DNA from: a virus | Taxonomy: Duplodnaviria; Heunggongvirae; Uroviricota; Caudoviricetes | IMG/VR virus record: IMGVR_UViG_2526164690_000046 | DNA length: 22,540 nucleotides | Direction: 5' to 3' (one strand) | Shown here: positions 10,694 to 11,409 of the stretch, piece after piece | Numbering within the stretch: the first letter of the stretch is position 1 | How the letters are laid out: every line of letters begins with the position of its first letter | The notes under the pieces: generated by a model | Seen by the model: the letters and a program-made list of their open reading frames with translations, nothing else | Told to the model about the DNA's origin: nothing | The model's database searches: none | Position numbers and translations under genes: made by a program

Positions 10694-11116
10694 ATGGCAA
10701 AAGTTTTTACACAGGAAGAGCGTGAAAAAATTAAGGAGCAGGTTGTTGAGTTGGTACGCCAGAGTGGGCGCGAGACGTTAAGGCAACTGGAGGCCAAGAC
10801 AGGTGCGACAAGATATCTGATGAGCATTCTTGCCAGAGAGTTGGTTGCCAGTGGCGATGTATACAACTCTGGCTATGGGTTATTCCCGTCTGAACAGGCT
10901 CGTAAGGATTGGAAAAACGCCCGCAAAAAACTATCCAGGGCAAAGGTGAAAAAAACGGTTGTGGTTGATCCTGACCTTATCTGGTCATTACCAGACGGAG
11001 AAATACGCCGCTATGACAGGCGTCAGAACATAATTTGTCGTGAGAGCAGGAGGAGCGAAGTTATGCAGCGTGTGCTGGCGTTCTATCGGGGAAACTTTCA
11101 GGAGGTGATGGAGTGA
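10694..11116 (+). CDS. Hypothetical protein
   Basis: ATG at 10694 preceded by GGAGG; 140 aa; stop overlaps the next gene start. Confidence 0.5.
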   Translation: MAKVFTQEEREKIKEQVVELVRQSGRETLRQLEAKTGATRYLMSILARELVASGDVYNSGYGLFPSEQARKDWKNARKKLSRAKVKKTVVVDPDLIWSLPDGEIRRYDRRQNIICRESRRSEVMQRVLAFYRGNFQEVME

Positions 11117-11409
11117 GGGTGAGAGTTTATATTGCCGGTCCAATGACGGGATATGAAAATTTCAACCGTGAGGCATTTCACAAGGTGGAAGAGGAACTGA
11201 AACGGGAAGGGCATACCGTCTTAAACCCGGCAGTACTTCCGGACGGGCTGACACAGCCGCACTACATGGATATTTGCATGGCAATGATTCGTTGTGTGGA
11301 TGCGATTTACATGCTGAATGGCTGGCAGCGGTCAGCGGGCGCTAAGGCAGAGCTGGCACTGGCGGAGAAACTGGGGCATGCGGTGATTTATCAGGAGGTG
11401 GCTCAATGA
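11113..11409 (+). CDS. DUF4406 / nucleoside 2-deoxyribosyltransferase-like protein
   Basis: GTG start with GGAGG 7 nt upstream; N-terminal VYIAGPMTG motif as recalled for the 2-deoxyribosyltransferase-like fold; 98 aa. Confidence 0.6.
   Translation: MRVRVYIAGPMTGYENFNREAFHKVEEELKREGHTVLNPAVLPDGLTQPHYMDICMAMIRCVDAIYMLNGWQRSAGAKAELALAEKLGHAVIYQEVAQ

What the first reader, a model, noticed from the sequence alone, without database searches (positions are those of the whole stretch)
11113..11409. DUF4406 (2-deoxyribosyltransferase-like) gene in a translationally coupled nin-like operon
The VYIAGPMTG N-terminus suggests a nucleoside 2-deoxyribosyltransferase / nucleotide N-hydrolase-like fold. 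It is coupled by overlapping start/stop codons to hypothetical genes on both sides. Such small nucleotide-handling enzymes in prophage accessory positions are candidates for nucleotide-pool manipulation; the function is unknown.
Basis: partly seen in the sequence, partly recalled or inferred. Interest (0 to 1): 0.55.

Follow-up and report, generated by a model that had tools for sequence, protein, structure and literature searches.

The report
Uncharacterised DUF4406 nucleotide-hydrolase-like prophage gene
This is a real, already catalogued small gene of a Rac-like E. coli prophage whose product has a cut-down version of the fold and active site of enzymes that clip the base off deoxynucleotides; what it does has never been tested, but it is a common gene rather than a surprise.

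Summary
Window 11113-11409 (+) is a 98-aa ORF matching Pfam DUF4406 (E 1.9e-37). Its GTG start overlaps the upstream stop (GTGA) and its stop overlaps the downstream ATG (ATGA). It lies in the early rightward operon of a Rac-like lambdoid prophage, after the replication genes. The protein is identical to RefSeq WP_001266134.1, and the gene occurs in 1208 of 5426 complete E. coli genomes.

Distant relatives are fused to a dNMP kinase or sit beside dUTPase or MazG genes.

Best reading: an early-lytic deoxynucleoside-5'-monophosphate N-glycosidase, or a base-swapping transferase. Its substrate and role are unknown. I found no published characterisation. Interest is modest.

The parts
11113..11409 (+). 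DUF4406 coding sequence (98 aa; an alternative GTG start at 11119 would give 96 aa)
   Evidence: ORF list. Pfam PF14359 E 1.9e-37. phrog_355 E 4e-48. Identical RefSeq CDS WP_001266134.1.
11100..11116 (+). Upstream junction: Shine-Dalgarno AGGAGG (11100-11105), a 7-nt spacer, then GTG start overlapping the TGA stop of the DUF977 gene (GTGA, 11113-11116)
   Evidence: Sequence. Motif count 3 against 0.14 expected. The GTGA overlap is kept in 77 of 80 E. coli prophage copies, whichever gene lies upstream.
11393..11409 (+). Downstream junction: AGGAGG (11393-11398), a 7-nt spacer, then the ATG of the Ead/Ea22-like gene overlapping the DUF4406 TGA stop (ATGA, 11406-11409)
   Evidence: Sequence and motif search. 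The same ATGA junction is found in 31 of 80 related loci; the others have different downstream genes.
11128..11130 (+). Codon for Tyr6, the equivalent of Tyr13 in rat Rcl/DNPH1
   Evidence: hhalign of alignment A2 against Rcl. Tyr in 93.7% and Phe in 5.6% of 319 relatives.
11275..11277 (+). Codon for Cys55, at the position of the third triad residue (Asp69 in Rcl, Asn in T. brucei PDT, Asp in BcmB and BlsM). Asp53 (11269-11271) covaries with it.
   Evidence: Alignments. Position 55 is Cys 60%, Asp 25%, Ala 7%. The pair (Asp53, Cys55) occurs 144 times and (Arg53, Asp55) 50 times.
11332..11352 (+). Codons for Ser74-Ala-Gly76-Ala-Lys-Ala-Glu80: the S-x-G-x-x-x-E motif holding the predicted nucleophile Glu80 and the phosphate-binding Ser74/Gly76
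   Evidence: Ser74 is 100%, Gly76 99.4% and Glu80 99.4% conserved in 319 relatives. The motif aligns with S87-L-G-V-G-Y-E93 of Rcl, with SPGTHIE and SPGTHVE of BcmB and BlsM, and with DCGTAFE of T. brucei PDT.
10694..11116 (+). Upstream translationally coupled gene: DUF977 / LygF-like ('Ren-like exclusion protein' in PHROGs)
   Evidence: Pfam PF06163 E 1.5e-30 and phrog_142 E 9e-46. RefSeq start.
11406..11867 (+). Downstream translationally coupled gene: Ead/Ea22-like protein
   Evidence: Pfam PF13935 E 6e-11 and phrog_250 E 1.5e-41.

Best explanation
The gene encodes a minimal member of the N-(deoxy)ribosyltransferase superfamily. It is made from the early rightward operon when the Rac-like prophage enters lytic growth.

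Most likely it binds a 2'-deoxynucleoside 5'-monophosphate. Glu80, oriented by Tyr6, would attack C1' and release the free base through a covalent deoxyribosyl-5-phosphate-enzyme intermediate. Ser74, Gly76 and the Gly9-Pro-Met-Thr12-Gly13 loop would hold the 5'-phosphate. The intermediate would then be resolved by water, making the enzyme a dNMP N-glycosidase like DNPH1/Rcl. Alternatively it would be resolved by another base, making it a phosphodeoxyribosyltransferase like phage DmtZ.

The biological role would be to adjust or clean the dNMP pool during phage DNA replication.

What is shown:
- the gene, its coupling to its neighbours and its operon position;
- its family membership and its fold;
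- conservation of the Glu, Tyr and Ser-x-Gly residues;
- a physical link of the family to dNMP enzymes, through fusion to a dNMP kinase and adjacency to dUTPase, MazG and dNMP kinase genes.

What is inferred:
- that it is catalytically active;
- the 5'-phosphate and 2'-deoxy specificity;
- which base it acts on;
- hydrolysis versus transfer;
- the benefit to the phage.
For: Family and fold:
- DUF4406 at E 1.9e-37.
- AlphaFold2 model with pLDDT 91.8 and pTM 0.85.
- Foldseek against the PDB: the top 40 hits are NDTs, DNPH1, MilB and BcmB, except 1t1j and one TIR domain; probability 1.0, TMq 0.70-0.78 for the NDT/DNPH1/MilB hits.
- A profile of 50 relatives finds T. brucei PDT (2a0k) at E 2.5e-4.

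Active site:
- hhalign against rat Rcl (sequence verified identical to 2khz) pairs Tyr6 with Tyr13, Ser74 with Ser87, Gly76 with Gly89 and Glu80 with Glu93.
- The same S-x-G-x-x-x-E motif aligns with SPGTHIE and SPGTHVE of the CMP N-glycosidases BcmB and BlsM. True transferases have Asp at the Ser74 position (DCGTAFE in T. brucei PDT).
- The DmtZ paper states that NDTs use Asp/Asn there to hold the 5'-OH, while the dNMP hydrolases have small uncharged residues. It also states that the Tyr excludes ribose (PMC12884076).
- Conservation over 319 non-identical relatives: Ser74 100%, Phe22 100%, Glu80 99.4%, Gly76 99.4%, Gly9 99.4%, Tyr6 93.7%.

Link to dNMPs:
- A 297-aa protein fuses DUF4406 to a PF21448 deoxynucleotide monophosphate kinase (E 3.7e-19).
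- This fusion occurs in 10 IMG/VR contigs from 8 metagenomes at 60-100% identity. One of them has a dUTPase three genes upstream.
- The family gene is translationally coupled to a dUTPase in Vibrio phage 1.094.O.
- It lies near a dNMP kinase in Arthrobacter phage Amyev and near MazG in Rhodococcus phage ReqiDocB7.
- BFVD lists longer structural matches named 'dATP/dGTP diphosphohydrolase N-terminal domain-containing' (names only, not verified).

Precedent: phage DmtZ, a member of the same superfamily, is a proven dAMP N-glycosidase and phosphodeoxyribosyltransferase.

Expression: no + strand promoter-like site between 7000 and 14500, and only weak terminator-like matches (8 found, 7.9 expected by chance), so co-transcription with the replication genes is plausible. 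The start and stop codons overlap the neighbours.
Against: - No member of DUF4406 has been assayed. Only three held papers mention the name, and none characterises it.
- The third triad residue is Cys55, not Asp or Asn. It is not known whether Cys, or the covarying Asp53 two residues earlier, can do that job.
- The model has only 4 strands and 3 helices, and it aligns with Rcl only up to Rcl residue 106 of 163. The region that supplies trans-subunit active-site residues is therefore absent (Ser117 in Rcl, from my own knowledge; Trp124 in DmtZ). The site may be incomplete, or completed in an unknown way.
- PF05014 is below its threshold, and hhalign probability against a single Rcl sequence is only 11%.
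- The fusion and neighbourhood evidence comes from relatives only 35-60% identical, and the fused ones are of the Asp55 type.
- This prophage itself has no recognisable nucleotide-metabolism neighbour.
- In 80 diverse IMG/VR loci the commonest neighbours are DNA methylases, helicases, NinX and DUF968, not nucleotide enzymes.
Confidence: 0.55

Rival explanations
1. It is a catalytically dead or non-enzymatic nucleotide-binding protein, acting as a sponge, sensor or regulator. It would be a truncated NDT fold that binds a nucleotide or nucleotide-derived signal without cleaving it.
For: The fold is cut short after strand 4. The general-acid position is Cys in this protein and Ala or Gly in about 10% of relatives. 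Small phage proteins that sequester nucleotide immune signals are a known class (my own knowledge; see also the sponge paper listed, PMC13243611).
Against: Near-absolute conservation of Glu80 (99.4%), together with Tyr6 and Ser-x-Gly in exactly the catalytic register of DNPH1 and MilB, is what is expected of an enzyme. Fusion to a dNMP kinase suggests a metabolic partner rather than a sponge.
Confidence: 0.15
2. It is a counter-defence or defence enzyme rather than a housekeeping one. In one version it is an N-glycosidase that destroys a nucleotide-derived immune signal or its precursor: dAMP as in anti-Kongming, NAD/ADPR-type signals, or chain-terminator nucleotides. In the other it attacks the modified dNMPs of competing phages.
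Against: There is no PADLOC hit and no published anti-defence link. The gene sits in the repressed early-lytic operon, not in a moron position with its own promoter, which argues against a role in the lysogen. The active-site motif is of the NDT/DNPH1 type, not the TIR type. This prophage shows no dNMP kinase.
Confidence: 0.12
3. It is a genuine nucleoside 2'-deoxyribosyltransferase (EC 2.4.2.6) that swaps bases between free deoxynucleosides, as many phage annotations say.
For: PHROG 355 and many GenBank phage records name relatives 'nucleoside 2-deoxyribosyltransferase'. The top Foldseek hits in the PDB are NDTs.
Against: PF05014 scores 15.2 bits against a cut-off of 28.8. The residue that holds the 5'-OH in transferases (the Asp in DCGTAFE of 2a0k) is an invariant Ser here, as in the nucleotide hydrolases. 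The C-terminal elements of NDTs are missing. The existing names are homology transfers, not experiments.
Confidence: 0.07
4. It is a chance ORF or a decaying remnant with no function.
For: It is small (98 aa), has a GTG start, and lies in a mosaic and partly decayed prophage type. Neighbouring genes are pseudogenes in some strains.
Against: Pfam E 1.9e-37. The gene is intact in 1200 complete E. coli genomes. There are 11,781 cluster representatives at E <= 0.001. The motifs are invariant across phyla. The model is confident.
Confidence: 0.01

Closest known systems
DNPH1 / Rcl (2'-deoxynucleoside 5'-phosphate N-hydrolase; PDB 2khz, 4fyh, 8qhr)
   Different: Cys55 sits where Rcl has Asp69; 4fyh is the D69N variant. 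The protein has 98 aa against about 150 and lacks the helix-strand-helix after strand 4 that gives the second-subunit phosphate contact. Sequence identity is only about 20%. DNPH1 is a cellular enzyme of eukaryotes.
CMP / hydroxymethyl-CMP N-glycosidases MilB, BcmB and BlsM (PDB 4jem, 4ohr, 4jen, 5vto)
   Different: Those enzymes keep Asp at the position of Cys55. They are ribonucleotide-specific, with Phe in place of the Tyr (my own knowledge, Sikowitz et al. 2013, cited). They are about 160 aa and belong to antibiotic biosynthesis clusters.
Phage DmtZ (dAMP N-glycosidase / deoxyribose-5-phosphate transferase of Z-genome phages; PMC12884076)
   Same: Phage-encoded, of the NDT superfamily and specific for dNMPs. 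It has a Tyr6...Glu nucleophile arrangement and lies next to, or fused with, a dUTPase-like gene, as does the DUF4406 gene of Vibrio phage 1.094.O.
   Different: DmtZ is about 145 aa with five strands, Asn77 as third triad residue and Trp124 from the partner subunit. It is confined to PurZ0 phages with 2-aminoadenine DNA and was described as having no database sequence similarity. I did not compare the two sequences directly. The near-identical annotated Rac-like prophage copy shows no PurZ or Dut gene.
Nucleoside 2'-deoxyribosyltransferases (PF05014; e.g. T. brucei PDT 2a0k, Lactobacillus NDT 1f8x)
   Same: Best Foldseek hit in the PDB (2a0k, E 3e-5, 26% identity). It is also the only PDB sequence found by the family profile at E below 0.001. 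The YIAGP strand-1 motif and the nucleophile Glu are shared.
   Different: PF05014 is below its threshold. Ser replaces the Asp that binds the 5'-OH. The C-terminal part is absent.
1t1j (structural-genomics 'hypothetical protein' APC5043, which I believe from memory belongs to Pfam DUF1937) and YtoQ (8of6)
   Different: 19% identity, and no function known either, so it adds no mechanistic information.

Membership tests
Pfam DUF4406 (PF14359) | Profile HMM score above the gathering cut-off (22 bits) over the whole domain | tested here: met
   128 bits, E 1.9e-37, profile positions 2-91 of 91. RefSeq gives the identical protein the same name.
Pfam DUF4406 (PF14359) | Family-invariant residues: Gly9, Phe22, Pro39, Ser74, Gly76, Ala77, Glu80 | tested here: met
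   All are present in the window protein. They are 98.7-100% conserved in 319 non-identical relatives.
Nucleoside 2'-deoxyribosyltransferase (PF05014, EC 2.4.2.6) | Profile HMM score above the gathering cut-off (28.8 bits) | tested here: not met
   15.2 bits, E 0.024.
Nucleoside 2'-deoxyribosyltransferase (PF05014, EC 2.4.2.6) | NDT-type alpha/beta fold | tested here: met
Nucleoside 2'-deoxyribosyltransferase (PF05014, EC 2.4.2.6) | Acidic or amide residue that hydrogen-bonds the 5'-OH of a nucleoside, 6 residues before the nucleophile | tested here: not met
   Invariant Ser74 aligns with the Asp of DCGTAFE in 2a0k. The role of that residue is stated in PMC12884076.
Nucleoside 2'-deoxyribosyltransferase (PF05014, EC 2.4.2.6) | C-terminal strand and helix that contribute residues to the neighbouring subunit's active site | tested here: not met
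   The model ends after strand 4 (E90-93). The alignment to Rcl stops at Rcl residue 106 of 163.
DNPH1/Rcl-type dNMP N-glycosidase | Nucleophile Glu and orienting Tyr in register | tested here: met
   Glu80 aligns with Glu93 and Tyr6 with Tyr13. They are 99.4% and 93.7% conserved.
DNPH1/Rcl-type dNMP N-glycosidase | Third triad residue Asp (Asp69 in rat, mutated in 4fyh) | tested here: not met
   Cys55 occupies that position in four independent alignments, against Rcl, T. brucei PDT, BcmB and BlsM. Asp is present there in 25% of relatives.
DNPH1/Rcl-type dNMP N-glycosidase | Ser-x-Gly 5'-phosphate-binding motif before the nucleophile | tested here: met
   Ser74-Ala-Gly76 aligns with Ser87-Leu-Gly89. 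The motif is invariant in the family.
DNPH1/Rcl-type dNMP N-glycosidase | Hydrolysis of dNMP to base plus deoxyribose 5-phosphate; dimeric enzyme | not testable with these tools
   This needs enzyme assays and oligomer analysis.
TIR-domain NADase | Match to TIR profiles and TIR-type active site | tested here: not met
DmtZ (Z-genome phage dAMP hydrolase/transferase) | Five-stranded fold of about 145 aa with Tyr6/Asn77/Glu103 and a Trp124 lid; genomic association with PurZ0 and DutZ | tested here: not met
   The window protein has four strands, 98 aa and Cys at the Asn position. The annotated twin of this prophage shows no PurZ or Dut gene. A direct sequence comparison with DmtZ was not done.
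Known anti-phage defence proteins (PADLOC-DB) | Match to any PADLOC model | tested here: not met
   No hit at E <= 0.01 for this protein or its three neighbours.

The most novel reading that the evidence does not exclude
DUF4406 could be a very large, phage-specific family of minimal dNMP N-glycosidases. By destroying a particular dNMP early in infection, the enzyme would work with or against phage dNMP kinases. That could stop the host from turning that dNMP into an immune signal or poison, as T5 Dmp does against the dITP-based Kongming system. Alternatively it could starve rival phages that need modified dNMPs. The Asp-to-Cys switch in the enterobacterial branch would then mark a changed substrate or mechanism.
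Probability: 0.12. Interest if true: 0.7.

Novelty: new member of a known kind. Interest (0 to 1): 0.33.

Why it matters
The gene is ordinary in occurrence. It is present in about a fifth of complete E. coli genomes, carries this same name in RefSeq, and belongs to a Pfam family.

Its value lies in the gap it exposes. DUF4406 is a very large family, with 11,781 cluster representatives at 50% identity, and it is found mostly in phages. It has a recognisable nucleotide N-glycosidase active site, yet no member I could find has been assayed. Phage annotations call it, inconsistently, a deoxyribosyltransferase, MazG, a hydrolase, dCMP deaminase or a CMP glycosidase.

A single biochemical study would correct thousands of annotations. 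It would also show whether temperate phages with ordinary DNA routinely prune their dNMP pools. That matters because dNMP and dNTP levels are now known to feed bacterial immune signalling.

Tried and rejected
- Direct sequence search of the PDB with the single protein found nothing meaningful (best E 0.5). Only the family profile reached T. brucei PDT.
- NCBIfam and PADLOC gave no hits.
- Ten long relatives (239-358 aa) from the representative search carried no second Pfam domain. Only one had an extra PHROG match, labelled phosphoheptose isomerase. Most of these 'fusions' look like run-on ORF calls or unknown extensions.
- 'MazG-like' and 'deoxycytidylate deaminase' labels on relatives in Arthrobacter and Pseudomonas phages turned out to be names given to the DUF4406 gene itself, not to fused domains.
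- The first IMG/VR scan returned only near-identical E. coli prophage copies. It was useful for the mosaic and junction analysis but not for function. A second scan seeded with a distant relative was needed.
- Neighbour clustering in 80 diverse loci showed replication and recombination genes, DNA methylases, NinX and DUF968. No nucleotide-metabolism genes were among the commonest neighbour clusters.
- Literature searches for DUF4406, PF14359, NDT-like, DNPH1-like, and for N-glycosidase with prophage, found no characterisation. The PF05014 NDTs of 2-aminoadenine phages and anti-Kongming T5 Dmp are analogies, not homologues.
- I first took Asp53 for the triad Asp. I rejected that because four alignments place Cys55 there, and Asp53 is not conserved outside the enterobacterial and Vibrio branch.
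- A homodimer prediction and a 3-D superposition on ligand-bound DNPH1 could not be done. Concatenated sequences are not accepted, and model coordinates are not exposed.
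Full report

Yes. Window 11113-11409 (+) is an open reading frame of 98 codons encoding MRVRVYIAGPMTGYENFNREAF...AELALAEKLGHAVIYQEVAQ. It matches Pfam DUF4406 (PF14359) end to end at 128 bits, E 1.9e-37, against a cut-off of 22. It also matches PHROG 355 ('nucleoside 2-deoxyribosyltransferase') at E 4e-48. The classical transferase family PF05014 is seen only below threshold (15.2 bits against 28.8).

GTG 11113-11115 overlaps the TGA stop 11114-11116 of the upstream gene. The gene's own TGA 11407-11409 overlaps the downstream ATG 11406-11408. Both starts are preceded by AGGAGG with a 7-nt spacer. The composite motif AGGAGGTG-N5-RTGA occurs three times in the window against 0.14 expected.

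A second in-frame GTG at 11119 would give MRVYIAGP, closer to the usual family N-terminus MK[IV]YIAGP. RefSeq uses 11113.

**2. Where is it?**

The window is a Rac-like lambdoid prophage of E. coli. A copy with a 100% identical DUF4406 gene, in strain E2865, is annotated in this order: intR, xisR, ralR, recT, recE, racC, kilR, repressor/cro-type regulators, ydaT, ydaU, ydaV, DUF1627, DUF977, DUF4406 (WP_001266134.1), an Ead/Ea22-like gene, several small hypothetical genes, DUF551, hokD, and so on.

The gene therefore lies in the block that follows the replication genes, which is the positional equivalent of the lambda nin region. No + strand promoter-like site was found between 7000 and 14500, and the terminator-like matches there are no more than chance gives (8 against 7.9 expected). 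The gene is therefore probably co-transcribed with the early lytic genes (a simple consensus scan, so this is weak evidence).

The gene is found in 1208 of 5426 complete E. coli genomes, with up to 4 copies per genome.

In 80 IMG/VR copies from E. coli-type prophages the DUF4406 gene stays 85-100% identical. The gene upstream varies: it is a DUF977 gene at 42-100% identity, or another small gene. The gene downstream is often different altogether. The GTGA overlap upstream is kept in 77 of 80 copies. This is normal lambdoid mosaicism, and there is no fixed partner gene.

**3. What is the protein?**

An AlphaFold2 model built on 35 homologues is confident (pLDDT 91.8, pTM 0.85). It shows strand-helix-strand-helix-strand-helix-strand: E4-8, H19-31, E35-37, H48-59, E64-67, H75-87, E90-93.

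- Foldseek against the PDB returns mainly members of the N-deoxyribosyltransferase superfamily at the top. These are T. brucei, Leishmania and Chroococcidiopsis NDTs, human and rat DNPH1, and the CMP N-glycosidases MilB and BcmB. TMq is 0.70-0.78 (BcmB 0.62-0.64), but TMt is only about 0.5, so the model covers about two thirds of those folds.
- A profile of 50 relatives finds T. brucei PDT by sequence at E 2.5e-4.

**4. Are the catalytic residues there?**

Partly.

I checked that the rat Rcl sequence I recalled is identical to PDB 2khz, and that 4fyh differs from it by D69N. hhalign of the family profile against it pairs Tyr6 with Tyr13, Ser74 with Ser87, Gly76 with Gly89 and Glu80 with Glu93. 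It puts Cys55 on Asp69 (probability only 11%, because the target was a single sequence).

Three independent HMMER alignments agree. Position 55 falls on the Asn of T. brucei PDT and on the Asp of BcmB and of BlsM. The S-x-G-x-x-x-E motif falls on SPGTHIE and SPGTHVE of the CMP glycosidases, and on DCGTAFE of the transferase.

Across 319 non-identical relatives the conservation is as follows:

| Residue | Conservation |
|---|---|
| Ser74 | 100% |
| Phe22 | 100% |
| Glu80 | 99.4% |
| Gly76 | 99.4% |
| Gly9 | 99.4% |
| Tyr6 | 93.7% (Phe 5.6%) |
| Position 55 | Cys 60%, Asp 25%, Ala 7%, Gly 3% |

Position 55 covaries with position 53. Asp53 with Cys55 occurs 144 times, mostly in the branch closest to this protein (enterobacterial and Vibrio relatives). 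Arg53 with Asp55 occurs 50 times, mostly in the distant, high-GC set. Actinophage members read YMRRDL or YLKRDL, recalling EQDLNWL of Rcl.

The DmtZ study states that transferases hold the nucleoside 5'-OH with an Asp or Asn, that the dNMP hydrolases have small uncharged residues there, and that the Tyr excludes ribose. On that basis, the invariant Ser74 and Tyr6 predict a 2'-deoxynucleoside 5'-phosphate substrate. This is an inference, not a measurement.

Two features depart from every characterised relative:
- Cys occupies the third triad position.
- The C-terminal helix-strand-helix is absent. In Rcl, NDT and DmtZ that element reaches into the partner subunit's active site. The alignment to Rcl ends at Rcl residue 106 of 163, and DmtZ uses Trp124 from that element.

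**5. Evidence from relatives**

The family is very large: 11,781 representatives of 50%-identity clusters at E <= 0.001. It is common in phages, with 317 GenBank phage records, mainly Vibrio, Arthrobacter, Mycobacterium, Aeromonas and Pseudomonas phages.

In every genome examined the gene sits in the early replication and recombination block:
- after the helicase and before NinB/NinG in Pseudomonas phage Orisa02;
- beside an exonuclease and near a dNMP kinase in Arthrobacter phage Amyev;
- translationally coupled to a dUTPase in Vibrio phage 1.094.O;
- after a helicase in Arthrobacter phage HumptyDumpty;
- between the sliding clamp and RusA, two genes from MazG, in Rhodococcus phage ReqiDocB7.

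In 80 diverse IMG/VR loci the most frequent neighbours are DUF968, replication HTH proteins, N6/N4 and C5 DNA methylases, helicases, DUF1064 and NinX.

The most informative result is a natural fusion. A 297-aa protein carries DUF4406 at residues 1-105 and a PF21448 deoxynucleotide monophosphate kinase, with its P-loop, at about residues 120-287 (E 3.7e-19). The same architecture occurs in 10 contigs from 8 metagenomes at 60-100% identity. One of those contigs has a dUTPase and a DNA methylase just upstream.

BFVD also lists longer structural matches named 'dATP/dGTP diphosphohydrolase N-terminal domain-containing protein' (names only, not verified).

These links tie the family to dNMPs. They come from relatives 35-60% identical to the window protein, and the fused ones are of the Asp55 type.

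**6. Mechanism proposed**

During lytic growth the protein binds a dNMP. Glu80, positioned by Tyr6, displaces the base and forms a deoxyribosyl-5-phosphate-enzyme intermediate. Water then releases deoxyribose 5-phosphate, or a second base does so, regenerating a different dNMP.

This copies the established chemistry of NDT, DNPH1 and phage DmtZ. The identity of the base is unknown. So is the reason a phage with ordinary DNA would want this activity. Possibilities are pool sanitation, balancing dNMPs for replication, and interference with nucleotide-based immunity. I put about 0.55 on the enzymatic assignment and much less on any specific role.

**7. Rivals**

- A non-catalytic nucleotide binder (0.15). 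The truncation and the Cys fit this. The near-absolute conservation of Glu80 and the kinase fusion argue against it.
- A dedicated defence or counter-defence enzyme (0.12). Similarity to TIR and ThsB and the analogy with dAMP-depleting T5 Dmp fit this. Against it are the lack of any PADLOC hit or literature link, and the position inside the repressed early operon.
- A true nucleoside transferase (0.07). The Ser74 and PF05014 results contradict it.
- A chance ORF (0.01). The conservation data exclude it.

**8. Comparison with what is known, and novelty**

The gene is a bona fide member of DUF4406 and of the NDT superfamily. It fails defining features of PF05014 transferases: the HMM threshold, the 5'-OH-binding Asp and the C-terminal elements. 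It also fails one feature of DNPH1/Rcl, the triad Asp. It probably works like the DNPH1, MilB and DmtZ branch without belonging to any of those families.

No paper in the held library characterises DUF4406. Three papers mention the name in passing, and no paper cites PF14359 or IPR025518.

The finding is therefore a correct recognition of a known, uncharacterised family, not a discovery. I rate it 'new member of a known kind', with modest interest (0.33). The interest lies in the size of the uncharacterised family, its inconsistent annotation, the Asp-to-Cys switch, and the dNMP-kinase fusion as a handle for experiments.

Noticed in passing
window 11100-11116, 11393-11409, 13843-13859: Three gene junctions share the same composite signal AGGAGGTG-N5-RTGA (Shine-Dalgarno, a 7-nt spacer, then a start codon overlapping the previous stop). 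That is 3 matches against 0.14 expected. Two of them flank the DUF4406 gene, so they may double as short homologies for module exchange between lambdoid phages.
   Followed up: partly
L134 4004-4897 (IMGVR_UViG_3300032291_001597); also L171-L180: A natural fusion of a DUF4406 domain with a deoxynucleotide monophosphate kinase (PF21448). It is conserved at 60-100% identity in 10 viral contigs from 8 metagenomes. One contig has a dUTPase, an N6/N4 DNA methylase and a 2OG-Fe(II) oxygenase just upstream.
   Followed up: partly
window 11269-11277 (Asp53-Ile54-Cys55) and relatives: Positions 53 and 55 covary across the family. Asp-x-Cys occurs 144 times and Arg-x-Asp 50 times. It looks as if the carboxylate of the catalytic triad has shifted by two residues, or been lost, in the enterobacterial and Vibrio branch.
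   Followed up: partly
window 11406-11867: The downstream Ead/Ea22-like protein also scores just above the Pfam cut-off for the MucB/RseB N-terminal domain (23.3 bits against 22.3, residues 65-116). That is why RefSeq names it 'sigma-E factor regulatory protein RseB domain-containing protein'. The name looks misleading for a phage coiled-coil protein.
   Followed up: no
window 11845-12201: A 118-aa ORF overlaps the end of the Ead-like gene by 23 nt. It has a CxxC...CxxC zinc-ribbon-like stretch (weak TFIIB zinc-ribbon hit, E 1.7e-4, below cut-off) and belongs to PHROG 1621. Its function is unknown.
   Followed up: no
window 8284-9141 compared with L001 7860-10029: The ydaU-like replication gene is intact in this window. 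In the otherwise near-identical prophage of strain E2865 it is split by an IS3-family element. The window's prophage may therefore be less decayed.
   Followed up: no
window 14269-14481: This ORF contains a HokD-type type I toxin (MKQQKAMLIALIVICLTVIVTALVTRKDLCEVRIRTGQTEVAVFTAYEPEE). It is annotated as hokD in the RefSeq twin.
   Followed up: no
GenBank phage records hit (e.g. L003 4004-4372, L087 2980-3366, L002 4157-4285): Relatives of this one family are variously named 'MazG-like pyrophosphatase', 'deoxycytidylate deaminase', 'hydrolase', 'CMP N-glycosidase' and 'nucleoside deoxyribosyltransferase'. In Pseudomonas phage Orisa02 the gene is called too short: the annotated CDS covers only the last 42 codons.
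   Followed up: partly
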